Part shown: piece by piece, positions 17,499 to 55,291 of the stretch
Position numbering within the stretch: position 1 is the first letter of the stretch
Layout of the letters: every line of letters starts with the position of its first letter
NCBI RefSeq assembly: GCF_030028105.1
Contig: NC_092371.1
Location: forward strand, 13,723,884-13,787,883
Direction: 5' to 3'
DNA length: 64,000 bases
Source: Mobula birostris
Lineage: Eukaryota
The notes under the pieces: generated by a model
Told to the model about the DNA's origin: nothing
Databases searched by the model: none
What the model saw: only the letters and a program-made list of their open reading frames with translations
Position numbers and translations under genes: made by a program

Positions 17499-17526
17499 AT
17501 GTTGGGGAGGCAGGTGCTGGTGTTGA
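17499..17526 (+). CDS. CCT3: CCT3 (TCP1-gamma) exon 1, MLGRQVLVL(S)
   Basis: ATG in CpG island; GTAAGT donor at 17527; matches CCT3 N-terminus MMGHRPVLVLS. Confidence 0.92.
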
Positions 17527-17702
17527 GTAAGTGTCGGGGCTGTGGGAACGGCGATGGGTTTCGGAGGGAGCGTGGTCCGGAGTGTAGGGTCTCGGTCCGG
17601 CCGGCGGTATCAGAGGCTCTGGGATGTGGCGTTGGCGAGGCCCGAGGCCTGTGACCTGGCGTGTGTGTCTCACCAGTTCTCCAATCTCTTTCCCCCCCGC
17701 AG

Positions 17703-17764
17703 GTCAGAACGTGAAGCGGGAATCGGGCCGCAAGGTGCAGCAGGGGAACATCAGTGCGGCCAAG
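17703..17764 (+). CDS. CCT3: CCT3 exon 2, QNVKRESGRKVQQGNISAAK
   Basis: CAG acceptor, GTGAGG donor, 62 nt, phase consistent. Confidence 0.95.
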
Positions 17765-17896
17765 GTGAGGGGTGGGAGTAGGTATGGGGAACAGGGAGGT
17801 GGGAAGGGAGTGGAGTATCAGGGTGGGTAAAGTTAGGGTCTGGGTGGGGGTAGGTACTAATGAAGTGGGTGCTAACGGGTGGGATTGGGTACTTGT

Positions 17897-18160
17897 GCAG
17901 TGCGTCCTATCACCCAAAGGTGGGGTTGGATACTGATGCAGTGGGTCCTGTCACCCAAAGGTGGGGCTGGATACTGATGCAGTGGGTCCCATCACCCAAA
18001 GGTGGGGCAGGATACTGATGCAGTGGGTTTGTCACCCAAAGGTGGGGCTGGATACTGGCCCAGTGGGTCCCGTCACCCAAAGGCGGGGCTGGATACTGAC
18101 CTAGTGGGTCCTGACTCCTGTGGGTAGGGCTAACTATTGATGCAGTGGGTCCAGTCACCT
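17897..18160. repeat. ~41-bp minisatellite in CCT3 intron 2, ~5-6 copies
   Basis: TCACCCAAAGGTGGGGCTGGATACTGATGCAGTGGGTCC units at 17910, 17951, 17992, 18032, 18073. Confidence 0.9.
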
Positions 18161-18929
18161 ATGGATGGGACTATATATTGAGTCAGTGGTCCTGTGTGGT
18201 TGGGATTATGCCTGTTGGTGAGTTGAGAAATTAACGTCTTTCAGTGGGAGAGGGTTGGGGGTGTTTTGTGAGTGATTGTGGAAATGTCACTTCCTCAGAC
18301 CCCACTGACCAACAACCCACTGGTTGCATTATGCTGATGCTAATTTATTTTCCCTAAATTCTCATCAATCCCCTGATTCTTTCTTCTCTCTTCTCCTTCC
18401 ACCACCCCCCCCTCGGCTTACCCCAGATTCTGCCCCTTACTTACATGCCTGGACAATTTGCCTCTAGTTGATTCTTATTTTGCTCAGAGCTTCAGCGTGG
18501 AACAGGCTGTTTCAGGCTGAAGAGCTGTGCTGCCCACCAACCTGCCAATCTAACACTAGCCTAATCACAGTTAATAATGAACAATTAACCTACTAACCAG
18601 TACGTCTTTGGGCTGTGGGAGGAAACCGGAGCACCCATGTGTATGCAGAAAGAATGTACAAACTTTCTTAGAGGATGCTGAGTTTGGGGTGTGAGCTCTG
18701 AACTCTGAAGCTGTAATTGCATTGCACTAATTGCCACACAACCATGGTGTGTGCCATTGCAAAGAAGGAAATCTACCAGATGCCTGCATGTGATGCCTGT
18801 GTGTTACAGGAATATTATGCAAGGAATAGCTAGGGTGTGTTGGTGGGTGTGAAGTTGTACACCAGTGTAGTGGTTACTGGATCTGTGGTTATATGTATTG
18901 TACATCACCTGATTCCTTTGATTTTTCAG

Positions 18930-18980
18930 ACTATTGCAGATGTTATTCGAACATGCTTGGGACCAAGAGCTATGATGAAG
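18930..18980 (+). CDS. CCT3: CCT3 exon 3, TIADVIRTCLGPRAMMK
   Basis: TTTCAG/GTATGT; chaperonin LGP motif. Confidence 0.96.
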
Positions 18981-19346
18981 GTATGTTGTGTTCAGACTTT
19001 GTCTAAGCTGTATGTTTTGTTTATGGATGTAGTCTTATAAAGCACAGGCAGGAATAAGAATACTTGCTTAGTAGAAAGACGGATTAATGGAATAAGCTGA
19101 CAGAGTTGTCATCCACACTTTCATTGCCATGTTATTCTTGACAAATTGTTAGTCCTGTGTGCTGTCAGCTAACTGATTCGAGATCTGGGCCTTGACATTC
19201 TGACCTCAGGCCAGTGATCCTTTGGCTTCCTTGGACAGAATAGTGCTGAAAGGCCCACCAGCAACTCTTCAGCCATGTCCTCACTTATGAGGGAACTGAG
19301 AATGTGGTTTCATGTTGAAGTTAATACTGTGACTCTGTTTCCCCAG

Positions 19347-19409
19347 ATGTTGCTGGATCCTATGGGTGGCATCGTTATGACAAATGATGGCAATGCCATT
19401 CTGCGAGAG
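19347..19409 (+). CDS. CCT3: CCT3 exon 4, MLLDPMGGIVMTNDGNAILRE
   Basis: CCCCAG/GTAGGT; TNDG motif. Confidence 0.97.
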
Positions 19410-20529
19410 GTAGGTCCGATCTGCCTGTCAACGGAGAAACTCGTTTGTTTCACTTTTCCTGATGTGTGTTGCACACCAACCACAATGACCTGTTCTGTGA
19501 TGTGGAACATCACCAAAGAGAATCGTACAACATGGAAACAGGCCCTTTGACCCACTGGCCACCCATTTACACTAATCCATTAAAAACAATTCTCCCCACA
19601 TTCCCATTGTCTGGCCCCACCCCGACCCAGAATCTCCCCTTTACCCACATATGGTCAATTTAAGGCAGTTAATTAACCTAACAGCACGTTGAGGGAGGAA
19701 TATGGAGCTCCTGGGGGTGGGGGAGGAACCCATATTGCTGTGAGGTTGGGGATTATTGGTACATGGACGGCACTAGGAATCTGGATCAGGCACTGAGTCA
19801 CTGAAGCCGTGAGACAGCGGTAATACCCACTGCACCACTGAACTACTGGTAAGTTCCCAGTTAGTTTACTTCAATATGCCATAGTGGGACAGCAAGACAG
19901 TAGAGTAGCATAGCGGTTAGTGTAACACTATCACAGTATCAGTGACCCTGGTTCATGTCCAGCTACGCTGTAAAGGCTTGTGGGTATGTTCTACCCTGAA
20001 CCATGTGGGTTTCCTCCGGATGTACCAGTTTCCTCCCACGTTCCAAAGATGTGCGGGTTCGAGGGTTAATTAGTTGAGTAGGTGTAATTGGGCAGGAAGG
20101 GCCTGTTACTGTGTTGTATCTCTAAATAAATAGTCTCTGGAACAGTTGGCACATAATACTGCAGCTTCACCAGAAATGAGTGGGAATTGTGGATCAACAC
20201 TGAGATCCCTCTGGTCAGTGGAGTACACACAGTTCCGCTTTATCCACTCTGCCCTGACACCCCACTGTGCTGCTCCCATTGTACAGCATCCACCCTGCTG
20301 CTGCTGGGTGATAGTTTAGAGTTGAATGAACATTTCCCTGAAGCTCCTCCCAGCTCCACTATGCCAGCCTAGCGCGCAGTAGGTACCTCGGAGGTGAGAA
20401 TATCGGTTTGATTGCATGGCCTTCCTTCCCAATTGATTACGGGTTCTGTGTGAGCAGCATCATTAAAGGTCTCCTACTCCCCTCTGCTCTGTTTGATGGC
20501 TTAGCCGACCCGACCCACTTTTTGATCTC

Positions 20530-22125
20530 TCAAAGGTGGAGGTGTAGCTAGTGTTGAGGAAGCAGTGAATCTACAGAAGGACTTGGATGGAGGGGGGTAA
20601 TCTATTTGAAACCCATGGAATATTGAAAGGTTGAGAGAGAGTGGATGTGGAGAGGATGGGTTCTATATTGGGGGAGTCTAGGACCAGTGGGCACAGCCTC
20701 AGAACAGAGGGATGTCCCTTTAGAACAGAGGTGGTGGAATTTCTTTAGCCAGAGGTTGAGGAATCTGTAGAATTTATTGTTACAGACGGCTGTGGAGGCC
20801 AAGTGATTGGGTATATTTAAAGTGAAAGTTGATAGGTTCTTGATTAGTAAGGGTGTTGAAGGTTCCTGGGAGAAGACAAGAATGAACTTGAGGGATAAAT
20901 TAATTGCTAATTAACCAAACTAATTTGGCAGGGGAATGGAAAATTGTGATAGGGCTCACAATGGAACAGAAGATGTACAAACAGAAGCAGTGTGTAGTGT
21001 GACTGTCTCGAAGGACAGGCAGATAATAGGGCAGTGGGATGAGTTATACCTGTAATGGGAACAAAATAAAAAAGGTTAATAAATATGCAACTGAAGATGT
21101 TATATTTGAATGTGCGGAGTAATTAGAATAAGTTAGATGATCTTGTAGTGCAGTTAGAGATTGCTAGGTTGGACACTTTGGGCATCATTGAGTCGTGGCT
21201 GAAAGAAGATTATAGTTGGAAGTTTAACATCCAAGGACACACATTGTGAAAGAACAGGCAGAAGGGATCACATGGCTCTCTGTTAGTTTTAAAAAAAAAA
21301 GAAAACAAATCTTTAGAGGTGACATAATGATCAGAATATGTAGAACTGTTGTGGGTAGAGTTAAGGAACTACAATGGTGCAAAAACACTGATGGAAGTTA
21401 TATACAGACCTCTGAACAGTAGCTAGGATGTGGGCTACAAATTACAATGGAAGACAGAAAAGGCATGTCAAAAGGGCAATGTTACTATAGTAATGAGGCT
21501 TTCAATATGCAGCTAGATTGGGAAAATCATGTTTGTTCTGATTTTTGAATCCCAAGGGAGAATTTGTAGAATGCCTATGAAATGGCTTTTTAGAGCAGCT
21601 TGTGGTTGAGCGCACTAGGGGATCAGCTATTTTGGGTTGGGTGTTGTATAAGGCACTGAAGAGGCCTCACTTGGAGTATTGTGAGCAATTTTGGGCCCCT
21701 TGTCTAGGAAAGGATATGCTAGCGTTGGATAGGGTTCAGGAGAGTGATTCCAGGAATGAAAGGGTTATCATATGAAGGAGTTCTTGGTGTCTTTGGGATG
21801 TCCAGTTAGTCAGAGATGAGGAATTTCTATAGCCAGAGGGTAATGAATCTGTGGAATTCATTACCACAGATAGCTGTGGAGGCCAAGTTATTGGGTATAT
21901 TCAAAATGGAAGTTGATGGGTTCTTTCAGTCACCATGAAAAGTTGCGGGGCAGAGGCAGGCAAATTGGATTGAGAGGGAAATGGATCAGCTGTGATCCAA
22001 TAGCACAGCAGGCTCAATGGACTGAATGGCCTAACTCTGCTATTTCTAATGGTCTCTGGTCTAAATAAGCCTTGGTGGAATGGAGGAATAGACTCGGTGG
22101 GCTGAATGGTCTAATTTCACTTTTG
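20530..22125 (+). mobile_element. Cluster of CR1 fragments (endonuclease and 3' ends)
   Basis: GIIESWLKE-type APE remnants and CR1 3' UTR similarity. Confidence 0.7.
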
Positions 22126-22141
22126 TTTTATGGTATCTCAG

Positions 22142-22238
22142 ATCCAGGTGCAGCACCCAGCAGCCAAGTCCATGATTGAAATCAGTCGCACCCAAGATGA
22201 AGAAGTTGGCGATGGGACCACCTCTGTCATCATCCTCA
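22142..22238 (+). CDS. CCT3: CCT3 exon 5, IQVQHPAAKSMIEISRTQDEEVGDGTTSVIIL
   Basis: CTCAG/GTATGT; GDGTT ATP-binding motif; 97 nt. Confidence 0.97.
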
Positions 22239-22699
22239 GTATGTAGAATGCTCTGGGGACTTGGGACTTCTGACTTTAATTGCACTAAAATGGGCTTCTG
22301 CTTGGCTATTGGATTTGTGGTGCATGTGCAGGGTCCAATAAAGATTGTGCTGGATCGAATCGAGATTCTGCCTTTGCAGAGTTGCATTATTTGTCAGTGA
22401 CGACCAGAGAGGGAGGTCCCATTGGTCATGCTCCATCAACCTCAATTCATTTGCTGGTATTAGACTTTCCATGGTTGGAAAAAGACTTGGGTGAAACATT
22501 GTGAGCTTAGACTGTTGGCCACACAATGTGATAATGGAGGAGTTTGAATTGTACCCCTAGAGCAGGGGTTCCCAGCCTAGGGATCATGGACCCCTCAGTT
22601 AATGCTAAGGTTCCAGGGGAACCCTTTGTTAGAATGGCCTGCTGGTCTTATTACAGAGATCTGAAACATGTTGTAGAGTCATAGAAAAATACAGGAGAG

Positions 22700-25580
22700 A
22701 AACGGGACCTGTAGTACCAGATCCCTTAGTTCTACCGCACTCAGTGCCCTATCGCTCATTGTATAATGCCTATCCTGGTTGGTCGTCCTGAAGTGCAACA
22801 CCTCACACTTTCATCTGCCATTTTCCAGCCCATTTTTCCAGCTGCAAACCATGATAGCCTTTTTTGCTGTCCAGTACTCCTCCAATCTTGGTATCATTTG
22901 CAAATTTGCTGATCCAGTTAACATTATTTTCAGATTGATGTAAATGACAAACAGTGGACCCAGCACTGGTCCTTGCAGCGCACCACTGGTCACAGGCCTC
23001 CAGTCAGAGAGGCAACCATCTACCATTTTCTGGCTTCTCCCACAAAGTTAATATCTAATTCAATTTACTATTTATTGAATGTTGAGCAACTGAACCTTTC
23101 TGACCAATGCCCCATGCGGGACCTTGTCAACTGACTTGTTAAAGTCCATATAGACAACATCCACTGCCTTCCCTTCATCCACTTTCCTACTTCCTCAAAT
23201 CTCTAGACATGACTTACCACACCCAAAGCCATGTCTATCCAAGTACTTAGATATAGCCTGTCCCTTAGAATACCTTCCAATAACTTTCCCACAACTGATG
23301 TCAGACTCACCGGCCTATAATTTCCTGGTTTATGTTTAGAGCCATTTTTTTAAACAGCAGAACAACACTGGCTATCTTCCTATCCTCTGGTACCTCTATC
23401 ACTAAGGAAGATGTAATTATCTCTGCTAGGGCCCCAGCAATTTCTGCACTTGTCTCTCGTAAAGTTAGAGGGAACATCTTGTCAGGCACTGGGGTTTATC
23501 CACCCAGATATACCTCAGAACAGCAAACACCTGCTATCTATAATCTGTATAGTGTCCATGAAATTGATGCTGCTTTGTCTCACTTCAATAGTCTCTGTGT
23601 CCATCTCCTGAATAAAGCACAGTTGCAAAAAATTTAAAATTTCCCCCCATCTGTTTTGTCTCCACACATGGATTAACATTCTGGTCTTCCAGAGGACTAA
23701 TTTTGTCCCTTACAATCGTTTTGCACTCTACATATTTGTAGAATCAGTTAGGATTCTCCATCACCTTGTCTGCTGGATCAACTTCATGCCTTCTTTTAGC
23801 TCTCTTGATTTCTTTTAGAATCAGGCTTATTATCACTAGCATGTGTTGTGAAAAGTGTGCCTTGAATTTCTTGTATTCCATAAGCACATCATTTGTTCCT
23901 ACCTGTCTGTACCTGCTGTACCTTTCTTTACTTAACCAGGACCTCAATATCTCTAGGTTCCCTACCCTTGTTATCTGTACCTTTTATTTTGACAGGCACA
24001 TGCAAGCTTTGTACTCTCAATTTCACTTTTGAAATCTTCTCACTTAGCAAGTACACTTTTCCAGAAAACAACTTTACCCAATCGACACTTGCTAAATAAT
24101 TTTTGATACCATCAAAATTGGTCTTTCTCCAATTTAGAATCTCAACCCACAGATCAGACCTATCTTTTTGTATATTTACTTTGCATCTAGTGATCACAAA
24201 TTTGTTACAAGTATTCCCCTGCACGAACTTCTGTCACCATGCTGTCTCATTCCCTAAGAGTAGATAAAGTATCGAACACTCTCATTTGGACTTCTATGTA
24301 CTGATTAAGGAAACTTTCCTAACACTTTGACAAGCTTTATCCTGTCTAGTTCCTTTTACAGTATGTGTCCCAGTCAATAGGTGGAAAGTTTAAATCACCT
24401 AGTCTCTATAACAACCTTGTTTCTTGCAACAGTTTGTGATCTCTTCAAATTTGCCCCTCTAAATCCCTTGAACTGTCAGGTGGTCTGTGATCATACTTTT
24501 CTTATTTCTCAGTTCCGCCCATAATAACACTTCCCCTGACTATTAATGCCACCCCACCTCTTTTAATCCCTCCCACCCTGTCATATCTAAAACAACAGAA
24601 TCCTGGAATAATTGATCTGCCAGTCCTGCCCCTCCTACAACCACTAATGGCTTCAATATCATCATTCCAATTGTTGATCAATGCCCTAAGCTCATCTGCC
24701 TTTCCTATGATACTTGCATTGAAATATGTGCAGTTCAAGGCACAAGTAGTGCCATGCTCAACCTTTTGATTCCTGACTTTGTCTGAGGTCTTCCCATGTC
24801 TTCACAACCTCCCCACCAACTGTTCTGGCACGCTTGTTCCCATCCCCCTACAACTCCAGTTTAAATCCCACTGTGCAGTATTAGCAAACATTCCAGCTAT
24901 GATATTGGTCCCCTTCCCTGGAAGAGAGCCCAATGATCCAAAAAGCTTATGCCCTCCTTCCTACGCCAACTCCTTAGCATTGTGTTAAACTGTTTAATTT
25001 TCCTATTTCTGGCATTACTAACAGTGGCATGGGTAGCATTTCTGAGATCACAATCCTGGAGGTGCTACCCTTTAACTTGGCACCTAACTCCCTGAACCTA
25101 CTTTGCAGAACTTCTTTCTTTGTACCCTCTGGCTGTTCACCCTTCCACTAAGAATGCTGAGAACTCTATCTGAGATGTCCTGTACCCGAGCACCTGGGAA
25201 GTGACATACCAATGGGAATCTCATTTTCGCCCACAGAACCTCCTTTCGATTCCCCTGACTAATCCCATATCACCGCAGCTCACCTCTTCTATATCCTTCT
25301 CTTCTCCCTTCCTTTGAGTCACTGAATTAGACTCAATGCCAGAGACCTGAATGCTGTGACTTTTCCTCTGCTAGGTCATTGCCTTGTGCCCGTGTGCTCC
25401 CAACCCCACCCCCAACAGTATCCAAAGTAATATACTTATTGAGGGGGATGGCCACGGGGGTACTCTGCACTGGCTCTTTAACCCCTATCCCCTTCCTGAC
25501 TGTCACCCAGTTTCCTGTGTCCTGCAGCTCGGGTGTGGCTACCTCTCTGTCCTATCTATCACCCCCACAGTCTCAGAATG
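22700..25580 (-). mobile_element. Long degenerate CR1 LINE in CCT3 intron 5
   Basis: WRPVTSG..QGPVLGPL, NASIIGKADELRA, GGVALIV motifs. Confidence 0.8.
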
Positions 25581-25849
25581 TGTTTGAGCCTTGTGCCTTG
25601 CTCCACACCAGCACATCTCTTGCCAACAACTGCATCCAGCTATGCAGTATCTTGGGGAACTTCCTCTTTAATTCACTGTAGAACCCACTGCTGAATTTGT
25701 ATGTGTGCACAGTAAACATTAGTCTCTATTTGTGATGTGGCCTCTAATTCTAATTCTAAGTGTTCTGATGCAGTTTGTTGGGGGGGTGGTGGGAGTGGTT
25801 TGAAGGTAGTGTTTATGTTTGAGTAACTGCGCACACTACTTTCTTTTAG

Positions 25850-25967
25850 CTGGAGAGATGCTTTTGGTAGCAGAGCAGTACCTCGAGCAGCAGATGCACC
25901 CCTCTGTAATCATAGGTGCTTATCACCAGGCGCTGGATGACATGATTACCACGCTGGAAGAAATCAG
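25850..25967 (+). CDS. CCT3: CCT3 exon 6, GEMLLVAEQYLEQQMHPSVIIGAYHQALDDMITTLEEI
   Basis: TTTTAG/GTACAT; 118 nt; homology. Confidence 0.95.
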
Positions 25968-27458
25968 GTACATGAGTGCCCGTTACACGACTGATAGGGG
26001 GGGCTGCGACTGATTTGCCTGGAGTGTAGGAGGCTGAGGGCTGACCTTGTGGTGGGTTGTCCATTGTTTTTTTGCGATGACAGTTTTCAAAGTGGAAAAG
26101 CTGTTGCACTAGGGCAGTTCCACCTTCAACCTCTGAGGACTTGGGTTCAGTGGTATGAATACACATCACAGCTGGGGTTTTGGTTGTAGTGGCTGACCAT
26201 GACTACTTCTGTGCATTGTTGTGCCCTTCGCTCTCCGCAGAGCGTTGCGGAATCATCTTCCTGGTCGTTGAATCTCACTGTATGTCTCAACCACCCAAGC
26301 TGCCAGAGCTGACTTCACATGCTAGAACAGGCATGTCATCAGGGTAAAAAGATATTCAGGCATGTACATAAGGGAAGGTTAAGGTGGTAACAGCCCATAT
26401 GTGACCAGCTCAGGTAGGCACGTTGGCATGGATGAGTTGAGTCAAATGGCCTTTTCCTGTGATGTATAACTGGCTTTCTGCTAGAATAAAACATGCATTA
26501 GATGGATACTTTCACAAGGTATGCTAATAAATTGCTGCTTCAAGTCTAGTTAAGATTAAATGAGAAAATATAGTTTATTTTCTGAAATTCATCTGCACAA
26601 CTGTACAGCAAATGACCAGATAATCTGCTTTCATGATGTTGTTTGAGTCACGAATATGAGCCAAAATACTGACCTCCTTTCTTTTGCTTTAATTTTGAGG
26701 CCCATCATTGGTTGGGGTTGATCATAAATATTGCTGCAATCAATACGTAAGCCAGACAGTGTAATGTGGAGAGCAAGCTGTTGCCCATGCAGCAGGCTGC
26801 CATGTCCACAAAGCTGATGAGTCCAAAGGAAGTCAGAAACTGATACAGTTTGGCACCAGCAGCACTACAGGACTTGCCAGTCAGTGTTGAACTGAATGTA
26901 GGATTGCCTTAGGGACTCCAGCTCTGGATTTTTTCTCTGGGTTTTCTCCTGAAATCTTCCCTGTGAGTGGGTATAGTCACAAGGCAGCAGAGGATTGAGA
27001 TCAATTTTCCTTCTAGAGCTGCCAACCGCAGCTGAGGAGTCCTGTCTGGTTTTAAAGTGCCAGTAATCTGCCTTTGCCCCTTCTCGTATCAGTAGAAACA
27101 ATTCCACTGGGCTTGGTAGCTAAGACACATGTGAAGGTCAAGAGCTAGACCTTGTTGTCAGAGCTTATTTGAGACACACACCATTACAAACATTTTAATA
27201 AGTAGTGAAACTTAACCCTGCTAACCCCCACCCCTCAGCTGTCACAACCTTGAGGAACTTTGCTTTAATCAGTGTTACAGGATTGATTGCATAAAACCTT
27301 CAGGTAAACTTGGTCCTCTGTAAGCAGTTTTCATTGTATTGAGAACTTGAATTTTTAATAATTATGGTGACTCTATTCTTTGTGTTCAACTGCACTTTCT
27401 TCAGGATTAGATGCTGCTCATTTCCAAGGGCACTTAAAAGCTTTTCTTCTCTTGGCAG

Positions 27459-27645
27459 CACTACTGTTGACATCAATAACCGTGACCTGATGCTGAAGAT
27501 TATCAACAGTGCAATCAACACCAAGGTGAACAACCTACAGGTTGACCTGGCCTGCAGCATTGCACTTGATGCTGTGAAGACCGTGCAGTTGGAAGAAAAT
27601 GGCCGCAAGGAGATTGACATTAAGAAGTATGCCAAAATTGAGAAG
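27459..27645 (+). CDS. CCT3: CCT3 exon 7, TTVDINNRDLMLKIINSAINTK...EIDIKKYAKIEK
   Basis: GGCAG/GTAAGA; 187 nt; homology. Confidence 0.95.
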
Positions 27646-28533
27646 GTAAGAGGCAGATCTCCTCTATCCATGGACATTTGGTGTCTGGGGCACTGTCCTT
27701 TTGTGGTCCAAGATGCTATTGAAAGGTTGATAGGCCTGGAATCAGATTTGCCATGTAAGTAAGTTGATTGGGTGGTTAAGAAGGAATGTGATGTATTGGC
27801 TTTCATTAATCAGGGGCTGGGTTAAGTTCAAGAGCTTGAGATAATATTGTAGCTATATAAAACCCTGGTTAGAAAACACTCAGTTGTGGTCACCTTATTA
27901 TGTAGAAGAATGTGGAAGCTTTAGAGAGGATGCAGGAGGAGGATGCTGTCTGCATTAGAGAGCATGTCTTTTGAGGATAGGTTGAGCAAACCAAGGCTTG
28001 TCTCTTTGGAGTGGGAAGTGAGAGGTGACTTGATGTGTTTAAGAGGCACAGATCAAGTGGACAGCCATACACTTTTTTCCCCCCAGGGTAGAAATGGCTA
28101 ATATGACCAAGCGTAATTTTAAAGTGATTGGGGGGTGAGTATGAGGGGTGTTGAAGGTAGATTTTTGTTACATAAAGTGATGGGTACAAAGGTCACACTG
28201 CCAGACGTAGTGGTAGAGGGACGTTTAAGAAACTCGGGTATAATGGAGGGCTTTGCAGGAGGGAACGCTTAGATTTATTTTGACATCGTGGGTCAAAGCG
28301 CCTGTACTGTTCTATGTCAGTGGGTTCTGGGAAGTCCTGGGTTCCAGTTCCACTGACAGCAAAAACAAAACATAAACTGCTCAAGTAACTTGGCAGGTCA
28401 AGTATGGGAGAGAACATCAAAAATGTTGTTAGTATCAGACTATTCAGTTGACTTTGTTTCCATGGTTGTTCTAGGAGTCATGCAGGAGTGTTACTTTGTT
28501 CTTGTTGGCAATTCCATTGTTTTATGTTAACAG

Positions 28534-28683
28534 GTTCCTGGTGGTTTCATTCATGATTCATGTGTGCTCCGAGGCGTGATGTTGAACAAGGATGTCACAC
28601 ACTCCCGCATGCGCAGGCATATCAAGAACCCCCGCATTGTGCTCTTGGACTGCTCACTGGAGTACAAGAAAGGGGAGAGCCAG
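28534..28683 (+). CDS. CCT3: CCT3 exon 8, VPGGFIHDSCVLRGVMLNKDVTHSRMRRHIKNPRIVLLDCSLEYKKGESQ
   Basis: AACAG/GTACGA; 150 nt; homology. Confidence 0.96.
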
Positions 28684-32354: not shown

Positions 32355-32845
32355 TATAATTACTGTAATTGATATGCTTATTTTTTCTATGTCATGTATT
32401 GAACTGATCTGATGCTAAGTTAACAAACTTTACGACATGTGCCAGTGATATTAAATCTGATTCTGCTTCACCTGATTGAAAGGTGAGTCTCCAGTGGGAT
32501 TAGCCACATAGGACTAATGAAAAATTTCATCAGTGTGATTATTTTTGGAATTTTCTGACCGAAAATGTGCCTGCAAAACCGAGGAGGATAGACTTGGGGT
32601 ATTAGAGGAGTGGGGGTTATGGCAGGGGATGATGATGAAATAGACCACTTATGATCGTATTGAATGGTAATGCAGAACATTGAGGGTCGTATGGCTGTCA
32701 GATGCTGTTTATGTGGACTTGGTATTCTCCAGAGTTGGTACATCTGAAAACCCCCCCCCCCCCCATTTTAATCTCCCCAGACATTTGGTGTGTGGGCTGT
32801 TTGGGATGTCTTTTACCCTGCTCTCTTGGCAATCTTCTGTTTCAG

Positions 32846-32978
32846 ACTGACATTGAGATCACTCGTGAGGAGGACTTCACTCGCATCCTGCAGATGGAAG
32901 AAGAATACATTCAGCAAATCTGCGAGGATATTATCCGTCTGAAACCTGACCTCCTCTTCACAGAGAAAGGCATCTCAG
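32846..32978 (+). CDS. CCT3: CCT3 exon 9, TDIEITREEDFTRILQMEEEYIQQICEDIIRLKPDLLFTEKGIS
   Basis: TTTCAG/GTAATG; 133 nt; homology. Confidence 0.96.
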
Positions 32979-33169
32979 GTAATGTGTGTGTAACATGTGG
33001 TATTTGTTGAGGTCAAGTAGACCACACAGTGGATATCCTCACCAGATTGTCCCAGCATCTTCCTTGGGACATGGTGTTCATTGGACAGCGAATGTAACAG
33101 CTCTTGGTATTGCATGGACATGTGACAGGGCTCTCTGGGACAAACCCTGCAAATATTCTCATTCTGAAT

Positions 33170-33750
33170 AACACAAATGCTGGAGGAACTCAGCAGGTCA
33201 GGCAGCATCTGTGGAAAGGAATAAACAATTGACAATTTGGGCTGACACCATCAAGAAATGAAGGGGAAAATGCCAGAATGAAAGGGTGAGACGAGGGGAA
33301 GGAGGACAAGCTTGGAAGGTGATAGATGAGCCAGATGGGGGAGGGGGGAATGAAGTAAGAAGCTGGGAGGTGAAAGATGAAAAAGGTAAAAGGTGGGAGA
33401 AGGAGGAATCTGAGAGGAGAGTGGACCATGGAGAAAGAGAAGGAGGAGCGTAGCATGGGGAGATGATAAACAGATAAGGTGGAGGTAAGAGGCCAAAATG
33501 GGAAATAAAAGAAGAGGGGAGGGGGAGAAAAGAAAAATATATTATCAGAAGGAGAGATCGCTGTTGATGCTACGAAGTTGGAGGTGACCTAGATGGAATA
33601 TGAGGTGTTGCTCCTCCACAGTGGGAATGGCATTGTCGTGGCAGAAGAGGAGGCTATGGACTGCCATGTTGGAACAGGAGTGGGGATAAGAATTAAAATG
33701 GTTGGCCACTGAGAAATTCTGCTTTTTACAGACGGAGTGGAAGTACTCAA
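33170..33750 (-). mobile_element. Penelope 3' fragment
   Basis: Similar to 37321-37933. Confidence 0.7.
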
Positions 33751-34119
33751 CATCTTGTGATTGTGTTAGCCACCATTTTCACATTGGCAGTGTTGCTCAC
33801 TGTTCTTGTTGCAGAGCACCAGAGTTGTCAAGTAGACAATGCGTAAGGGGAAATCCTAAACAATGTACAGACTAGCTCCATTTTTATTCATGGCCTACAA
33901 TTCCTTTGATAGAATTCTCTCAATATTCCAGCCGCAGAGGGCTTAGAAAAGTGATATTGATCATTGGTGGGCATGCTATATTGGCACTGGAATGTATGGC
34001 TACACTTGCAGGCTGCTCCCAGTGCATCTCTAGGTTATTGGTTGTTAACACAAACAGTGCATTTCAGTGTAATTGCGATAAATCTGAGTTTGCACGAGAG
34101 TCGATGAGTGAAACTGTTT

Positions 34120-34895
34120 TGAGTTTCAAAGGTATATTTAATGTCAGAGAAACATATGCAGTATACATCCTGAAATGCTTTTTCTTCACAACCATCCACA
34201 AAAAGTGTCCCCAAAGAGTGAATGACAGTTAAATGTTAGAAACTCGAAGTACCTCCCCAGCTCCCCTTCCTCCTGCATGTAAGCAGCAGCAAGCACCAAT
34301 CCTCCCCCCACCGGCAAAAGAAAGCATCGGCACCTGCCACCGAGAACTCGAGCATGAGCAAAGACACCAACTTGCAGTACCCCAAAGACTGCTGTTCACC
34401 CGATATTCGAAATACCACAGGCTCTCTCCTGCCCTAATAAGGGAGAAAGATGTGTCTCTGTTTCACAGCGAGAGGGGAGGGATAACAAACAACTCTCTGG
34501 TTTACAATGTTAAAAGTCCGTTGTGTCGCTTTTTTCCTATCTCTGTGCCCAAAGGTCTCAGGTCTCTGGGCACACAGCCAGAGATCTTCCGTCTCCAATG
34601 ACTCATCGATCTCCTGTAGAGGCATTGAATCTGATTTCCCTGTCTCCAGAGCCACGAAATCGCAATCCTCCGAAGGTGAGCGAAGCTCATAGGCCAAGCC
34701 CTTGGCGTGAGGAACAACGGCCGTTCGTGAAACCCTGAGAGCTGGTCCCATTCCCGCAAAGAACTGTAGTCAGCATGTAACTCCGGGTCAGGATCCTCAA
34801 AAGAACCCTGAAAGGGAAAAAATAGAGGTATTAAAGATGGAAATAGAGCTGCTTCTGAAGGTGCAAGCAAAGGAGTTGCCGTTAGGTGCCAGTGA
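34120..34895 (-). mobile_element. Non-autonomous LINE-tail-dependent retroelement
   Basis: No long ORF; CpG-containing 5' end; repeat-like 3' tail. Confidence 0.5.
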
Positions 34896-35504
34896 CAGAT
34901 ATAACCTGGATTCTGTCTGCCTGTGCTAGCCTGGAGACTGGGATGCAGTGAAATCATTCAGTTCAGTCTTTCACAGAGAATTGGCGGATACAGCCAGTCC
35001 ATTACAAGCAAAGTCCCCCCCTCCACTGAGCACAAAGAAGGCAGTATCCATTATCAAATACAGCCCCCCCCCCCAACCACCATGTTCCCTTCTTGCTCCT
35101 ACCATCAGGCAGGAGGTACAGAAGAATTGGACCCAGCGGTTCCAGAACAGTTATTACCCCTCAACTATCAGGGTCTTGAACTGGTGTGGATAACCTCACC
35201 ACTACTCTGAACTGATTCGATGACCTGCAGATCAGTTTCAAGGACTCTTTACAACTTGTGTTGTCAGTATTTTACTTGCACAGTTTGTCTTTTACACGTG
35301 GGTTGTTTGCCAGTCTTTATATTTTTCTGTGAAATTCTATTGCATTCCTGCAAAAGCCCTTCAAGAAAATTAATCTTGAATATGGTAACATATTTTACTT
35401 TGAAAGTGAGTTTACTTTCAGGGCTCTCATTTTGCTGCATTTTGGGGGAGTTAAAAAAAAGTTGTAGGGCACACCTTCATTTTTGGTCTCCATTTGCCTT
35501 TCAG

Positions 35505-35586
35505 ACTTAGCACTTCATTACCTCATGAAGGCAAATATCTCTGCAATCCGTCGTATCAGAAAGAGTGACAGCAACAGGATTGCCAG
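35505..35586 (+). CDS. CCT3: CCT3 exon 10, (D)LALHYLMKANISAIRRIRKSDSNRIA(R)
   Basis: TTTCAG/GTATAC; 82 nt; homology. Confidence 0.94.
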
Positions 35587-35640
35587 GTATACTAGGCTTG
35601 CTTGGAATGAATAAGCTGCTTTTGCCACATACAATTTTTT

Positions 35641-36295
35641 TTAGATTATGAGAACACTCAGTCCTCTTTTATTGTCATTTAGAAATGCATACATGTGTTA
35701 AGAAATGATACAATGTTTCTTCGGAGTGATATCACAGAAAACAGGACAAACCAAAGACTAACACTGACAGAACCACATAATTATAACATATAGTTACAGC
35801 AGTGCAAAAAATACCATAATTTGATGAAGAACAAACCATGGGCACAGTAAAAATAGTCTCAAAGTCCCCGAGTCGATGGACTCCTGAGTCCTCGATAGCA
35901 GGCGGAAAAGGGAAAAACTCCCTGCTATAAACCTCCAGGCACCGTCAACTTACCGATGCCTTGGAAGCAGCTGACACTGAGTCCGTCTGTCCGAAAACTT
36001 CGAGCCTCCGACCAGCTGCTCCAATACACCCTCCTGAGTGCCTTCGACCTTGCCCCAGCCGCTGAAACATGCAAAGCCAAGGATTTCAGGGCCTTCTGCT
36101 CCGGAGATTCCGGCCACCACACAGTAGCAGCGGCAGTGAAGCGGGCATTTCAGAAGTTTTCCAGATGTTCCTCTGTACTCTCACGTCCATCTCCATCAAA
36201 TCAGAATTGTGCATGGTTCCCTACTTGACAGATAACAGATATCATTCATTCACCGGAGAGGCCATGTGCGCTGCCGCCACGCCATCTTCTCCTCC
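35641..36295 (-). mobile_element. Non-autonomous element with Rex1-type 3' tail (related to 51690-51998)
   Basis: ATGCATTTCTAAATGACAATAAA..GAGGACTGAGTG..(TAATC) tail shared with 51.9 kb; 5' GAAGATGGCG. Confidence 0.65.
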
Positions 36296-36788
36296 CTCTT
36301 GTAATTTAAATTGTGTGGGAGGAAATAATTCTAAGACCCACTGGGCCTATTGCTTCTGTACTTGAAGTATGAACAATACTGCTTTGTGCATCACTTGCCT
36401 TTGTGATTTGTACTGACTTGATTTGTCAGTAGTTGTGTCCTCAGCAGCATGAAATGCGGGGAGCGATCCACAGTGGTACATGTCTTGGGTTAAACGTGAG
36501 ATTAGAATTTTTTTTTTTTTTTGCACATTCATTGTTGAAATTATGATTTGGCTCACTGCCCTATGCCATTTTGGTGCTCCTTAACCACCACCACCACCTG
36601 TCACCCTTGTTTTCATAAATCCATCTCTTGACTCAACCACCTATCAGAATAAGTGGCACCTCTTTTGCTTTCAGCCAGCATTAATGCCAGTTACTAGGTC
36701 TTTTCTGAAACTTTGAATTTAAATGGTAAATTTGAACTTGCCTGCATGTAGACAATTTGTACCTCAATGTGTGCTGCTTGTTTTTCAG

Positions 36789-36969
36789 GGCATGTGGTGC
36801 TCGTATTGTTAGCCGCACAGATGAGTTGCATGAGGATGATATTGGCACTGGTGCGGGTCTGTTTGAGGTCAAGAAGATAGGTGATGAGTACTTTGCGTTC
36901 ATCACTGAATGCAAAGACCCCAAAGCTTGCACCATCCTCCTGCGTGGAGCAAGCAAGGACATTCTGGCG
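36789..36969 (+). CDS. CCT3: CCT3 exon 11, ACGARIVSRTDEL...KDPKACTILLRGASKDILA
   Basis: TTTCAG/GTAAGC; 181 nt; homology. Confidence 0.96.
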
Positions 36970-37320
36970 GTAAGCAAGTGTTCTGCACGCATATGTTCTC
37001 TGACAGGTGTTGATGTGAAGTTGCAGATAGGGTTTGTGTTTGAAGTGGAAACCGCATGTTTAGTGTAGTGGTTAGTGTAATGATATTACAACCTGAGTTC
37101 AATTCCCATTGCTGATTGTAAGGAATTTGTACGCTCTCCCTGTGACCACTTGGGTTTCCTCCAGGTGCTCAGGTTTCCTCTCACAGTCCAAAGATGTGTA
37201 GATTAGTAGGTTAATTGTTCACACTGGTGTAATGTGGAGCACAGGCTTGTTGTGCTGGAAGGGCCTGTGACCACTCTGTGTATCTAAATCTTATCACAAA
37301 TAAATAGAAATAATAACTGA

Positions 37321-37933
37321 ACACGAGGAACTCAGCAGATGCTGCAAATTCAAGCAACACACATCAAATTTGCTGGTGAACGCAGTAGGCCAGGCAGCAT
37401 CTCTAGAAAGAGGTACAGTCGATGTTTCGGGCTGAGACCCTTTGTCAGGACTAACTGAAGGAAGAGCTAGTAGATTTGAGAGAGGGAGGGGGAGATCCAA
37501 AATGATAGGAGAAGACAGGAGGGGGAGGGATGGAGCCAAGAGCTGGACAGGTGATTGGCAAAAGGGATATGAGAGGATCATGGGACAGGAGGCCCAGGGA
37601 GAAGGAAAAGGGGGAGGGGGGAAAATCCCAGAGGATGGGCAAGGGGTATGGTGAGAGGGACAGAGGGAGAAAAAGGAGAGAGAGAAAGAATGTGTGTATA
37701 TAAAAAAAATAATGGAAGGGATACGAGGGGGAGGTGGGGCATTAGCGGAAGTTAGAGAAGTCAGTGTTCATGTCATCGGGTTGGAGGCTACCCAGACAGA
37801 ATATAAGGTGTTGTTCCTCCAGCCTGAGTGTGGCTTCATCTTGACAGTAGAGGAGGCCGTGGATAGACATGTCAGAATGGGAATGGGATGTGGAATTAAA
37901 ATATGTGGCCACTGGGAGATCCTGCTTTCTCTG
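37321..37933 (-). mobile_element. Penelope 3' end (GIY-YIG C-terminus + terminal repeat with decayed hammerhead)
   Basis: QRKQDLPVATYFN...EEQHLIFCLGSLQPD matches 8150-8476. Confidence 0.85.
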
Positions 37934-39102
37934 CCGGTACCGGGCCGCAAAGCATGTGCTACCGGGCCGCAAGGAAACGATATGATTTAGCGATAGGAGT
38001 CAGTTGCACCTTTCCTCATTCCCTGTCACGCACTGTTGAGCCATTACGCATGCGAGGTCATTAGCCGCGTGTCGTCCATGTCAGTGCGGGAAGAAGATCA
38101 ACTCCTCGAGCTTGCAAATGACGGCGGGATGAAAAGTATGTTTGACATAACATCTCTGCCGGCATCCTGGATCAAAGTCAAGGCGAAATATCCTGAGATA
38201 GCCACGAAAGCACTGAAAACGTTGCTTCCATTTCCAACATACCTCTGCAATGAATGCAACGAAAACTAAATTGCGGACTAGACTGGACATAAGGAACCCC
38301 CTTCGAGTATCGCTGTCTCCCTTCACCCCTCGATAGTTCAGTCTTGTTGCAGGGAAACAAGCCTAGGGTTCCCACTGATTCAGCGATACTGGTGTGTTGC
38401 AATGATTTTATATATTCATACGGGGAAAATATGCGCTGTGTTTAATATCCAAACATTACTTAAAATGTTATGATGCTATTGACTTATATAACCGTATAAC
38501 AATTACAGCACGGAAACAGGCCATATCAGCCCTTCTAGTCTGTGCCGAACGCTACTCTCGCCTAGTCCCGCCGACCTGCACTCAACCCATCCGTTCCCTT
38601 CCTGTCCATATACCTATTCAATTTTTCTTTAAATGATAATATTGAACCTGCCTCTACCACTTCTACTGGAAGTTTGTTCAACACTTACTTCAAGCTCCCC
38701 TGTCCTCCCCTGATAATTATCACTATATTAATGCAAGGAAGATATGCGCTGTGTTTAATATTAAATTTGAAAGATAAACCCTTTTAGAAATGAAATTGAG
38801 TGTATTAGCCACTTACCACCAACATTCCGGTCGCGATTAACACCCCCCACCCCCGAACAGAATCGCCAGAAAGGATTTGCAGAGAGAAAAAACCGGCAGG
38901 TTACGATGCGCATGCGCACTGGTGCCCGCGCAAGGCTTCATGGTCACTGTAGTCTTTCTCTAGGTAAACACAACATATTTGACTGCTAATCTTGTCCATT
39001 GGCAACCCTACCCCCCCCCCCCCCCCCCCCGGGTTGGCTGGTCCACAAGAATATTGTCAATATTAAACCGGTCCGCAGTGCAAAAAGGGTTGGGGACCCC
39101 TG
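37934..39102 (+). mobile_element. Non-autonomous hAT-Charlie element with transposase dimerisation-domain remnant, left end missing
   Basis: WIKVKAKYPEIATKALKTLLPFPTYLC; right TIR GGTTGGGGACCCCTG followed by GACTAGAT. Confidence 0.8.
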
Positions 39103-39643
39103 GACTAGATAAGCTTAAGGACCTGTTTCTGTGGTGTAGTGCTCTGACTTTGGGGTGTACAAATCTGGAACAGGAGGATGGGATGATGAGAGGTACAGGG
39201 ATCTGCATGTGGTTAGGGGTCTGGGCGGATCTAAAGTTTAAGTATCGTGGTGTGGGGCAGCCAGTGAGGATCGTGATTTACGGTTCTGTTGTCATAGTTA
39301 TACAGTACTACAGCACAGAAACATGCCCTTTCGCCCATCTAATCCTTGCCAAACTCTTATTCTGCCTAGTCGCATTGACTATACCCCACTCATCCATGTA
39401 TTTATCTAAACTTCTCGTAAATGTTTCAATCTAACCCACATCCACAACTTCCACTGGCAGTTCGTTCCACATACTGGCTACCACCTGAGTGAAGAAGTTC
39501 CTCCTCAGGTTCCCCTTAAATATTTCACCTTTCACCCTTAACCTAAGCCTCTAATTCTAGTTTTACCCAACATCAGTGGAAAAAGCTTGCTTGCATTTAT
39601 CCTATCTGTGTATGTGTTGGCTGAATGTCGGCTTCTGTTTCAG

Positions 39644-39889
39644 GAGGTGGAGCGTAACCTGCAGGACGCCATGCAGGTCACTCGCAATGTGCTGTTGGAC
39701 CCGCGACTAGTGCCCGGTGGTGGGGCGGTGGAAATGGCCGTGGCGCACAAACTGATAGAGAAGTCTAAAACCATGACGGGAGTGCAGCAATGGCCCTATC
39801 GTGCAGTGGCAAACGCTCTAGAGGTCATCCCCAGGACACTCATCCAGAACTGTGGGGCAAGCACCATCCGCTTGCTCACCTCGCTTCGG
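39644..39889 (+). CDS. CCT3: CCT3 exon 12, EVERNLQDAMQV...VPGGGAVEMAVA...IRLLTSLR
   Basis: TTTCAG/GTAAGG; 246 nt; PGGG motif. Confidence 0.97.
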
Positions 39890-40397
39890 GTAAGGAGCAC
39901 CAGTGTGATGATCCCTACCATTGACTTACTGCCAATACACTTGTGCACAGGGATACCTGCCTGCCTAGTTCCACACTTGTCTCTGCTGCTCCTGTAATGT
40001 CATTTGAAGTGTAATGGGGAGTCACTGCCTGTGCTGCTTAGTAGCTCTAATTCTGCATATGTCTCCACTGGTTTCCCCTCTCATTTTGGCCTCTTCCATG
40101 CACCTGACTCTTCGCCATGGGCTGTCTGATTCTTGCAACCTGCTGTTGTATCACTGCACAGAGATTGAGGAAAATAAAGGTTCTTCCTGTCTCTGCCTTT
40201 CAGTTTTTACCCTGGAGAAATGTGTCTGCATTCTGAAAAATAGTTTTTATTTCTGTTCACTTTCCTGAAGCACGAGATTATGTGCAACCTGGCACAAAAT
40301 AACCTGCTCATCTTTCTTCCCCATCCTTCCTTGTGATTGCCCTATGTTTGGCTGCATCTGGCACCATATTGACTGTTGAATCTCCATATCTCTGCAG

Positions 40398-40529
40398 GCA
40401 AAGCACACGCAGGAAGGCTGCCAGACCTGGGGAGTCAATGGAGAGACCGGAACTTTGGCTGACATGAAGGAGCTCGGCATCTGGGAACCACTGACGGTCA
40501 AATCACAGACTTTCAAAACTGCAGTGGAG
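40398..40529 (+). CDS. CCT3: CCT3 exon 13, AKHTQEGCQTWGVNGETGTLADMKELGIWEPLTVKSQTFKTAVE
   Basis: CTGCAG/GTGAGT; 132 nt; homology. Confidence 0.96.
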
Positions 40530-41346
40530 GTGAGTGCCCAGAAGGCAGGGAGGGCTTCCCTGTGAGGGAGAGAGTAACGTTACTTTTTTTTTTTGGCTCT
40601 TCGTACCAGTTTAGAACTGTTTTTCCCTTATGTTCCAATTTTGTCAGCAGTCACAAAACAAAGAAACAACGGAACCCATTTTTAGAAGAAACAACAGAGG
40701 CCGTCAAACACCTAATGTGTTTGTGGGGGGAGGAAAATAAATCATGCAAATAAAAAAAGTAGACAAATAACATGCAGAAAGTGAACTGCACAGAGCCAGT
40801 TCAGCACTGAGGTGAGCTGAATACTGACTTGTCCTTTGCCCCCTGTTTTTAATCTGACGGTGCTTAAATTGGCCAAAAAATAGGTTTGTTCATTCCAACA
40901 CTGTGGCTCCGACCTACCGTAGTTGACTGACTGTCCCTGTTTATTTCTTGCATCTTTGATCTCCTTTTCCTGGGCAGTGTGATGATGGATTCCCCTCTGT
41001 TTTTGACAAATCATTTACAGTTGTCTAACAAGACACATTCTGCCTGGGGATGATCCTCAGTGTCATATTGTGGCCACTTTAGTTCTCCAGCCCTCCTGCG
41101 CTGTTACAATGAGCTTGAGGATCAGGGACTCATTGTCTCGCTCTTTAGGGCCATATCAAATTCTGAAATTCATGGTGAATTGGATAATGCTGGGAAGGAC
41201 TCCCTCCTAAAGGGAGTTCTACTGTTTGCCAGTTGGATAAACGGGTATTGTTACTGGGGTTGGTAATGTTGGGGGTGGAGGGGTTGGCATGGTATCACTG
41301 CCTGTTTGTGCTCAGCCCCCTCACCTGCGCTCATCTCCACCCGCAG

Positions 41347-41439
41347 ACTGCCATCCTGCTTCTGCGCATTGACGACATCGTGTCCGGCCACAAGAGCAAG
41401 AAGGAAAGCAATCAGGGAGGTGAAGGAGATGCTGCGTAG
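41347..41439 (+). CDS. CCT3: CCT3 exon 14 (terminal), TAILLLRIDDIVSGHKSKKESNQGGEGDAA*
   Basis: CCGCAG acceptor; LLRIDDIV motif; TAG stop; the 14 exons sum to 1623 nt in frame. Confidence 0.96.
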   Translation, partial: TAILLLRIDDIVSGHKSKKESNQGGEGDAA

Positions 41440-52440: not shown

Positions 52441-52456
52441 TGACTGTTTCTCACAG

Positions 52457-53876: not shown

Positions 53877-54029
53877 GTAGGTGGGCTGGCGTCCCGCAGG
53901 GGTGTGGAGGGTGGGGTCAATCCCTGTGACATCGGAGGGGTGGGGGGAGTCTGGTACCCTTCCCCTTCTCTCTCTCCATAACCCCTCCCCTTCTCTTGCA
54001 CTACCTCCCCACCACTTCCCTTTGAACCC

Positions 54030-54920: not shown

Positions 54921-54944
54921 AAAGTATCTCTAAAATATCGATCT

Positions 54945-55240: not shown

Positions 55241-55291
55241 GATGCTAATTGCTCCATGTTCTGCTTCCAGCTGACCATTGTTTCTCATCAG

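What the first reader, a model, noticed from the sequence alone, without database searches (positions are those of the whole stretch)
17499..41439. Intact but atypically diverged CCT3: possible specialised TRiC gamma paralog or accelerated lineage
The reading frame, 14 exons and splice sites are intact and GDGTT is retained. Yet several residues I recall as conserved from yeast or human differ: VIILAGE->VIILTGE (codon split by intron 5); TKA(I/L)SRWS->TKVNNLQV (conserved Trp lost); IEDS->IHDS; THPRM->THSRM; DLAQHYL->DLALHYL; DNNRIAR->DSNRIAR. The changes cluster in the intermediate and apical (substrate-binding) domains. An essential single-copy CCT subunit rarely tolerates this. It suggests either a duplicated, tissue-specialised subunit (by analogy with testis-enriched CCT6B, and here next to meiotic HORMAD1) or lineage-specific adaptation. 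Substitutions are seen in the sequence; conservation is recalled; the interpretation is inference.
Basis: partly seen in the sequence, partly recalled or inferred. Interest (0 to 1): 0.7.

Follow-up and report, generated by a model that had tools for sequence, protein, structure and literature searches.

The report
Cartilaginous-fish signature in single-copy CCT3
This is the ordinary, spliced CCT3 protein-folding gene of a devil/manta ray, the only copy our genome searches found, and most of its odd amino acids are an old signature shared by the sharks, rays and chimaera examined, which likely retuned a client- and cofactor-docking groove while leaving the ATP machinery unchanged.

Summary
The 14-exon, 540-aa gene is intact, identical to annotated Mobula CCT3, and all 13 junctions appear in RNA-like contigs. 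Four genome searches found one CCT3 locus, beside GLMP as in bony vertebrates. The striking changes are class-wide. Trp168→Gln is in 19/19 chondrichthyans including the chimaera, against Trp in 27/27 bony vertebrates. Gln301→Leu/Ile is in 19/19, and Glu210 is lost in 19/19. They were fixed over ~420 My ago. A101T and P226S are minor batoid changes. The branch separating cartilaginous from bony fishes is 2-3 times longer in CCT3 than in CCT1 or CCT6. Catalytic residues and 12 of 14 mapped actin/tubulin contacts are identical, but Gln301 belongs to the mapped client-binding core. Domain clustering is not significant (p=0.41). Best reading: an early remodelling of two surfaces of the normal subunit, then renewed constraint. 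The cause is untested. Urea adaptation is weakened because the urea-storing coelacanth keeps the old residues. A divergent CCT paralogue does exist in this genome, but it is an intronless CCT6 copy.

The parts
17499..17526 (+). CCT3 exon 1 (start codon)
   Evidence: junction
17703..17764 (+). CCT3 exon 2
18930..18980 (+). CCT3 exon 3
19347..19409 (+). CCT3 exon 4 (stem-loop, catalytic Asp61)
   Evidence: Asp60 of yeast CCT3 in PMC6765261
22142..22238 (+). CCT3 exon 5: GDGTT at 22208-22222; last base is the first base of the Thr101 codon
   Evidence: junction 22238-25850 in 4 of 4 runs
25850..25967 (+). CCT3 exon 6: Tyr111 and His126 (chondrichthyan signature), Ser119 (elasmobranch)
27459..27645 (+). 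CCT3 exon 7: nucleotide-sensing Lys162 kept; remodelled segment Asn164-Val168 at 27529-27543, Gln167 (mammalian Trp168) at 27538-27540
   Evidence: NSL lysine
28534..28683 (+). CCT3 exon 8: His209 (28552-28554; mammalian Glu210), Ser226 (28603-28605; proximal loop, batoid subset)
32846..32978 (+). CCT3 exon 9 (lid helix)
35505..35586 (+). CCT3 exon 10: client-binding helix with Leu300 (35513-35515; human Gln301), Ser317, Ser319
36789..36969 (+). CCT3 exon 11
39644..39889 (+). CCT3 exon 12: catalytic Asp392 kept; Thr397, Asn441
40398..40529 (+). CCT3 exon 13
41347..41439 (+). CCT3 exon 14, coding part to the stop codon
41639..41644 (+). AATAAA polyadenylation signal; RNA-like contigs of X10 and X13 run to 41651
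52301..55621 (+). Two GLMP (NCU-G1, PF15065) exon stretches: downstream neighbour used as synteny marker
   Evidence: fused PF15065+PF00118 gene models in moray eel, turkey and pigeon

Best explanation
This gene is the ray's standard CCT3 (TRiC gamma), the only copy our genome searches found, and most of its unusual residues were fixed before chimaeras split from sharks and rays, in an episode that likely remodelled two surfaces of the subunit and was likely followed by renewed purifying selection. Shown: intact spliced gene; one locus found; ancestral neighbour; class-wide distribution; catalytic residues kept; a branch 2-3 times longer than in CCT1 and CCT6. From the literature: the protein should work like any CCT3, sitting between CCT1 and CCT6, binding and hydrolysing ATP through GDGTT, Lys162, Asp61 and Asp392, and holding actin and tubulin through contacts that are almost all unchanged. 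Inferred: (a) Gln301→Leu makes the helix-11/proximal-loop groove more hydrophobic, like the same position in CCT1 and CCT6, and would shift affinity for clients, for prefoldin/PhLP2A and for the neighbour's release loop. (b) The segment just after the nucleotide-sensing lysine swapped its hydrophobic register (Ile and Trp lost, Leu and Ile/Val gained), which looks compensatory. The driver I favour is co-adjustment with a docking partner; it is untested.
For: Single locus: exon 12, exon 7 and exon 11 queries each gave one CCT3 match, and a coelacanth CCT3 query put all 9 matches at 67% identity or more in this locus, with the other 11 of 20 at 48% or less. Class-wide distribution (19 chondrichthyans, 27 bony, 10 outgroups). 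Position 167: Q 19/19, W 27/27 bony, aromatic 8/8 outgroups with a letter. Position 300: L/I 19/19, Q 27/27, Q 8/9. Position 209: H 17, D 1, Q 1; E 27/27. Also H126 19/19, S317 19/19, L166 19/19. In the wider set, Q167 is 17/17 against W 76/76. Rate: 0.098 (bootstrap 0.056-0.117) against CCT1 0.033 (0.020-0.051); elasmobranch-only 0.137 against 0.044 and 0.061, with similar bony depths of 0.159, 0.176 and 0.146. With outgroups the excess falls on the chondrichthyan side in 40 of 40 replicates. Function kept: K162, D392 and R312/R313/R315/R321 present; 12 of 14 CCT3 actin/tubulin contact residues from the Kelly preprint are identical, and the other two are R→K and T→S; the model matches human CCT3 with TM 0.93. 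Of the 20 exonic differences listed against relatives, 18 are synonymous. Site meaning: Q301 is one of five core residues for HIV p6 binding, and the other four are kept. PhLP2A helix 3 and prefoldin dock on the CCT3 apical helices. Leu occupies this position in Mobula CCT1 and CCT6 and in 24 of 113 other group II chaperonins.
Against: No codon-based dN/dS, so selection is not shown. CCT3 also evolves faster than CCT1 and CCT6 inside elasmobranchs (0.080 against 0.044 and 0.056), which fits some relaxation. The excess of diagnostic sites is modest: 13/397 against 4/448 (p=0.024) and 9/421 (p=0.39); radical changes 7/397 against 4/869 (p=0.043). No class-wide change passed my threshold in the release-loop region of CCT1 or CCT6. 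Only 2 of the 7 other subunits served as controls, taxon sets differed between genes, and no lamprey, hagfish or amphioxus sequence was in hand, so the root rests on distant outgroups. There is one chimaera sequence. No atomic coordinates were available, so 3D neighbourhoods were not measured. The tissue of the RNA-like runs is not on record. The long genome query used a stricter first look.
Confidence: 0.7

Rival explanations
1. Nearly neutral, compensatory drift: constraint on CCT3 (a low-ATPase-side subunit) slackened in cartilaginous fishes, tolerated residues were fixed, and function did not change measurably.
For: The faster rate continues inside elasmobranchs. The replacement residues occur at these positions in other group II chaperonins: L300 in 24/113, T101 in 18/110, S226 in 18/112. 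There is no domain clustering, and the known actin/tubulin contacts are untouched.
Against: The new residues have stayed fixed across a chimaera, sharks and rays (Q167, L166, H126 and S317 all 19/19) rather than continuing to vary. The old Trp and Gln are kept in most diverse eukaryote CCT3 representatives (W 14/18, Q 19/25).
Confidence: 0.3
2. Adaptation to the urea/TMAO cytosol of cartilaginous fishes: a more hydrophobic groove would hold clients or ring contacts in high urea.
For: The distribution matches the class that keeps urea and TMAO at about 2:1 (PMC10077225 passages). Intrinsic urea resistance has been reported for shark myosin light chain (PMC10039937 abstract).
Against: Coelacanths also store urea and TMAO (PMC2315648 passage), yet Latimeria keeps Trp, Glu, Gln and Asn. 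CCT1 shows no comparable burst.
Confidence: 0.15
3. A duplicated, tissue-specialised CCT3 paralogue (CCT6B-like) beside a conventional copy elsewhere.
For: Divergent CCT paralogues do arise in this genome (intronless CCT6-like L007). The tissues of the runs are unknown.
Against: One locus in four searches. None of the 120 listed hits (of 217) is a named chondrichthyan CCT3 with Trp. The GLMP neighbour is ancestral. Spliced CCT3 contigs appear in all 8 runs laid, only the last junction in X9.
Confidence: 0.02
4. Hidden paralogy: cartilaginous and bony fishes kept different CCT3 duplicates from the vertebrate genome duplications, which lengthens the branch.
For: A long internal branch is what reciprocal loss would give.
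Against: CCT3 sits beside GLMP on both sides of the split. The outgroups place nearly all the length on the chondrichthyan side (0.101 against 0.000), whereas reciprocal loss would lengthen both sides.
Confidence: 0.03
5. Assembly or sequencing errors at these codons.
For: None.
Against: Identical annotated protein, RNA-like contigs with 0 other letters over exons 6-8, and the same residues in 16 species.
Confidence: 0.005

Closest known systems
Vertebrate CCT3 / TCP-1-gamma of TRiC (human chains in PDB 7NVL, 7NVM, 8I1U)
   Same: Pfam Cpn60_TCP1 over residues 32-523; 82-85% identity to bony-vertebrate CCT3; TM 0.93; GDGTT, Lys162, Asp61 and Asp392 kept; the CCT3-type His/Tyr/basic substrate positions of PMC2846930 Table 6 kept (H301, Y302, K305); 12 of 14 actin/tubulin contacts identical.
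   Different: Class-wide Trp168→Gln, Arg167→Leu, Ile165→Asn, Glu210→His, Gln301→Leu, Thr318→Ser and Arg127→His (mammalian numbering = window +1); Asn320→Ser in most elasmobranchs; A101T and P226S in some batoids.
CCT6B and CCT8L (testis-enriched CCT paralogues; PMC2846930, passages seen)
   Same: Divergence that touches the substrate-binding helix.
   Different: Those are extra copies beside a conserved parent (CCT8L evolves about 14-15 times faster than CCT8). This is the only CCT3 found, in the parental locus, at about 1.4 times the bony root-to-tip length.
Positively selected CCT-alpha in deep-sea brittle stars (bioRxiv 10.1101/775585, abstract seen)
   Same: Lineage-specific change in a single-copy CCT subunit, in or near the substrate-binding region, proposed as an environmental adaptation.
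   Different: A different subunit and phylum; selection was tested there with codon models, and here it could not be. The change here is one ancient class-wide event, not repeated habitat shifts.

Membership tests
CCT3 (TRiC gamma) orthologues | Group II chaperonin domain and fold | tested here: met
   PF00118 E=1.5e-165; pLDDT 86.5, best Foldseek hits are human CCT3 chains, TM 0.93
CCT3 (TRiC gamma) orthologues | Closest to CCT3 rather than to another subunit | tested here: met
   82-100% identity to vertebrate CCT3; 33% and 30% to Mobula CCT1 and CCT6
CCT3 (TRiC gamma) orthologues | ATP-binding and catalytic residues (GDGTT, nucleotide-sensing Lys, two catalytic Asp) | tested here: met
   yeast CCT3 Lys162/Asp60/Asp398 from PMC6765261
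CCT3 (TRiC gamma) orthologues | Ancestral genomic position (next to GLMP) | tested here: met
   NCU-G1 exons downstream; fused GLMP+CCT3 models in three bony vertebrates. The human adjacency is recalled.
CCT3 (TRiC gamma) orthologues | Deeply conserved Trp168 and Gln301 | tested here: not met
   Gln167 and Leu300. These positions are typical but not universal: non-Trp in 4 of 18 and non-Gln in 6 of 25 diverse CCT3 representatives, so I do not treat them as defining.
CCT3 (TRiC gamma) orthologues | Assembles into TRiC and folds actin and tubulin | not testable with these tools
   Inferred from single copy and conserved contact residues
Tissue-specialised CCT paralogues (CCT6B/CCT8L type) | A second, conserved parental copy in the same genome | tested here: not met
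   One locus (exon-wise searches; one search used a stricter first look)
Tissue-specialised CCT paralogues (CCT6B/CCT8L type) | Testis-restricted expression | tested here: inconclusive
   Spliced contigs in 8 of 8 runs laid, from 6 coded organisms and 6 studies, but tissues are not on record and the runs were found with this gene
Adaptively evolving CCT subunit | dN/dS above 1 on the branch or at the sites | not testable with these tools
   No coding sequences of relatives in hand; only amino-acid branch lengths

The most novel reading that the evidence does not exclude
Cartilaginous fishes carry a functionally re-specified TRiC. The CCT3 client and cofactor groove (Gln301→Leu) and the helix cap after its nucleotide-sensing lysine (Trp168→Gln) changed together on the stem lineage, alongside changes in the same helix of CCT6 (Phe300→Leu, Leu305→Phe). 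This co-adapted the CCT3/CCT6 side of the ring to an altered prefoldin/PhLP2A handover or to folding in urea, and gives a natural, ~420-My-tested variant of an essential substrate-binding site.
Probability: 0.25. Interest if true: 0.6.

Novelty: new variant of a known kind. Interest (0 to 1): 0.32.

Why it matters
TRiC is essential, and the client-binding helix of each subunit is described as strikingly conserved across vertebrates (PMC2846930 passage). A whole vertebrate class living with a different residue in the mapped CCT3 binding core, and without an otherwise widely kept Trp, shows which 'invariant' residues are dispensable. It also offers a ready swap experiment for how CCT3 recognises clients and cofactors. 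If the change proves neutral, it is only a clean molecular marker of Chondrichthyes.

Tried and rejected
Second CCT3 copy: none; the other hits translate as CCT1, CCT4, CCT5, CCT7, CCT8 and divergent family members (subunit labels other than CCT1 and CCT6 rest on recalled motifs). Assembly error: rejected. Domain clustering: p=0.41. HORMAD1 co-regulation: its HORMA exons lie 19-30 kb before the window and its last recognisable coding stretch is at about 106-190, on the same strand, so the genes are not head-to-head (the motif used was recalled). Compensating class-wide changes in the release-loop region of CCT1 or CCT6: none passed the threshold. Covariation of positions 167 and 300 among diverse CCT3 representatives: 9/1/1/3 among the 14 of 35 with letters at both, p=0.04. 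It is post hoc, non-independent and partly tracks divergence (59% against 53% identity), so it is a lead only. PhLP2A (PDCL3) in this genome: the Phosducin profile gave four matches at two loci that I did not characterise, so partner co-evolution was not tested. The primary papers of Joachimiak 2014, Pereira 2012 and Nadler-Holly 2012 are not held; a review and a yeast structure paper were used instead. Literature searches for a report of this signature listed none; subscription journals and supplements were not covered. The 'bony residue' column was off by one and is not used. Earlier-findings look-ups returned nothing relevant. No complex prediction was run, because known subunit pairs tend to pass by likeness.
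Full report
Gene model. The finding's interval holds a 14-exon CCT3 gene, 17499-41439, + strand. All introns are GT-AG and the frame is open for 540 aa. The protein is 540/540 identical to P0001, annotated as T-complex protein 1 subunit gamma of Mobula, and 98.5% identical to Hemitrygon. RNA-like contigs bridge junctions 1-10 in runs X1, X5, X4 and X6 and junctions 7-13 in X11 and X13. That includes the junction that splits the Thr101 codon (4 of 4 runs), and the listed exon 6-8 pieces have no other letters. The runs' RNA status is a tool guess and tissues are not recorded. A poly(A) signal lies at 41639.

Copy number and position. Exon 12 gave one 100% match and four at 30-45%. Exon 7 as protein and exon 11 as DNA gave one match each. 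A conventional query, coelacanth CCT3, gave 20 matches: the 9 at 67-86% identity all lie in this locus, and the other 11 are 24-48% and translate as other family members (stricter first look). GLMP exons lie downstream on the same strand. Fused GLMP+CCT3 gene models in moray eel, turkey and pigeon show the same adjacency in bony vertebrates. HORMA-domain exons lie 19-30 kb before the window on the same strand, and a last coding stretch sits at about 106-190. So HORMAD1 is a tail-to-head neighbour, not a promoter partner.

Who shares the residues. Of 120 listed homologues (217 found), 17 are named chondrichthyans (16 species), 76 are named bony vertebrates and 27 are unnamed. Position 167 is Gln in 17/17 and Trp in 76/76. 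Position 300 is Leu/Ile in 17/17 and Gln in 71/74. Position 209 is His in 16/17 and Glu in 65/67. Position 319 is Ser in 15/17 and Asn in 72/73. A curated set of 7 batoids, 11 sharks, 1 chimaera, 27 bony vertebrates and 10 outgroups gives the same picture. The chimaera shares Q167, L166, N164, H209, L300, S317, H126, Y111 and N441, so these predate the holocephalan-elasmobranch split (about 420 Mya; PMC6238376, abstract start in a search listing). T101 and S226 are each in 4 of 7 batoids only. Among 35 diverse CCT3-like representatives (of 149 scored), Trp is in 14/18 and Gln in 19/25 with a letter, so the bony state is the old one. The ureosmotic coelacanth keeps it.

Rate. I used two ring neighbours as controls. 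Sites at least 90% conserved in bony vertebrates but replaced in at least 90% of elasmobranchs number 13/397 in CCT3 (7 radical), 4/448 in CCT1 (1 radical) and 9/421 in CCT6 (3 radical, all Leu/Phe swaps). Fisher p is 0.024 against CCT1, 0.39 against CCT6, and 0.043 for radical changes pooled. The elasmobranch-to-bony branch is 0.137, 0.044 and 0.061, while bony depths are alike (0.159, 0.176, 0.146). The 40-replicate bootstrap ranges are 0.088-0.169, 0.026-0.067 and 0.032-0.085. With the chimaera included, CCT3 is 0.098 and CCT1 0.033, with non-overlapping ranges in 30 replicates. Rooted on distant outgroups, the length falls on the chondrichthyan side (0.101 against 0.000; 40 of 40), and root-to-tip is 0.22 against 0.155. 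Limits: taxon sets differ, the rows are picked cluster representatives and members, topologies were constrained, and no jawless fish was available. Of the 20 exonic differences that the truncated read tables list against relatives, 18 are synonymous, which fits present purifying selection. The 13 sites are not clustered by domain (p=0.41; domain limits transferred from CCT5 in PMC5473854).

What the sites are. Mammalian numbering is window +1. The model is confident and matches human CCT3 (pLDDT 86.5, TM 0.93). It puts 167 in the first turn of the helix after the loop at 160-164, and 300 in helix 297-305. Yeast CCT3 Lys162 is the nucleotide sensor and Asp60/Asp398 are catalytic (PMC6765261 passages); their equivalents K162, D61 and D392, and GDGTT, are kept. 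The remodelled segment therefore follows the sensor lysine without removing it. A review (PMC6363620 passage) reports that HIV p6 binds CCT3 through L299, Q301, H302, M305 and Y247; four are kept and Q301 is Leu. Of 14 CCT3 residues that contact tubulin or actin in closed TRiC (bioRxiv 2021.03.26.436673 passages), 12 are identical. R200 is Lys, as in 24/27 bony vertebrates, and T318 is Ser. PhLP2A helix 3 and prefoldin share a site on CCT3 apical helices H9/H10, and the PhLP2A C-terminal helix binds a CCT3/CCT6 crevasse (PMC10837153, passages and section 8). That H10 is the Gln301 helix is my inference from the CCT5 numbering. The same groove meets the neighbour's release loop on closure (PMC5473854 section 7). 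Leu is the residue at this position in Mobula CCT1 and CCT6.

Mechanism. Shown: one intact, spliced, syntenic CCT3 with a class-wide signature and a 2-3-fold longer stem branch. Established: CCT3's role in TRiC. Inferred: an early remodelling of the apical groove and of the helix cap after the sensor lysine, then renewed constraint, most likely as co-adjustment with a docking partner (overall 0.7). Rivals are compensatory drift (0.3), urea adaptation (0.15; weakened by the coelacanth), hidden paralogy (0.03), a specialised paralogue (0.02) and error (0.005). The first two overlap partly with the best reading because they concern the cause.

Novelty. The gene is known and annotated. Four paper searches listed no report of this signature; subscription journals and supplements were not seen. 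The scan's earlier notes hold nothing on it. It is a new variant of a known kind and of moderate interest: a useful natural experiment on an essential binding site, not a new system.

Noticed in passing
L007:1501-3018 (- strand; G000:C1:87147690-87149207): Intronless CCT6-like gene in a 608-codon open frame, only 50% identical to Mobula CCT6 (multi-exon locus at G000:C29:53.89-53.93 Mb), with an altered GDGTT motif. It is likely an old retrocopy and is the real candidate for a specialised CCT paralogue in this genome. Expression and conservation were not tested.
   Followed up: partly
L014/L015 (G000:C6:99369764-99371349, - strand): Intronless, GC-rich (68-70%), highly diverged chaperonin that looks CCT8-like by eye, in two reading frames (one frameshift: pseudogene or assembly error). 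PMC2846930 describes intronless CCT8L as mammal-specific, so this is either an independent retrocopy or an older origin.
   Followed up: partly
L022:1501-1707 (G000:C3:16579626-16579832, - strand): Diverged N-terminal chaperonin fragment, CCT7-like by recalled motifs, 2.8 Mb from the window; probably a pseudogene.
   Followed up: no
CCT6 proteins P0525 and P0399 (locus G000:C29:53.89-53.93 Mb): All 14 elasmobranch CCT6 sequences carry L259F, K261Q, F300L and L305F; the last two lie in the helix equivalent to the CCT3 Gln301 helix. No chimaera CCT6 was in hand.
   Followed up: partly
window:9200-10700: GC-rich, CpG-island-like stretch between HORMAD1 and CCT3 with no gene assigned; it could be the promoter of an unrecognised gene or a repeat.
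   Followed up: no
window:17900-18120: Short array of about 40-base imperfect tandem repeats in CCT3 intron 2 (seen).
   Followed up: no
P0333, P0350, P0538, P0541, P0547, P0550-P0554: Callorhinchus has many partial CCT1-like annotated proteins on several contigs, which suggests amplified CCT1 fragments in the chimaera genome.
   Followed up: no
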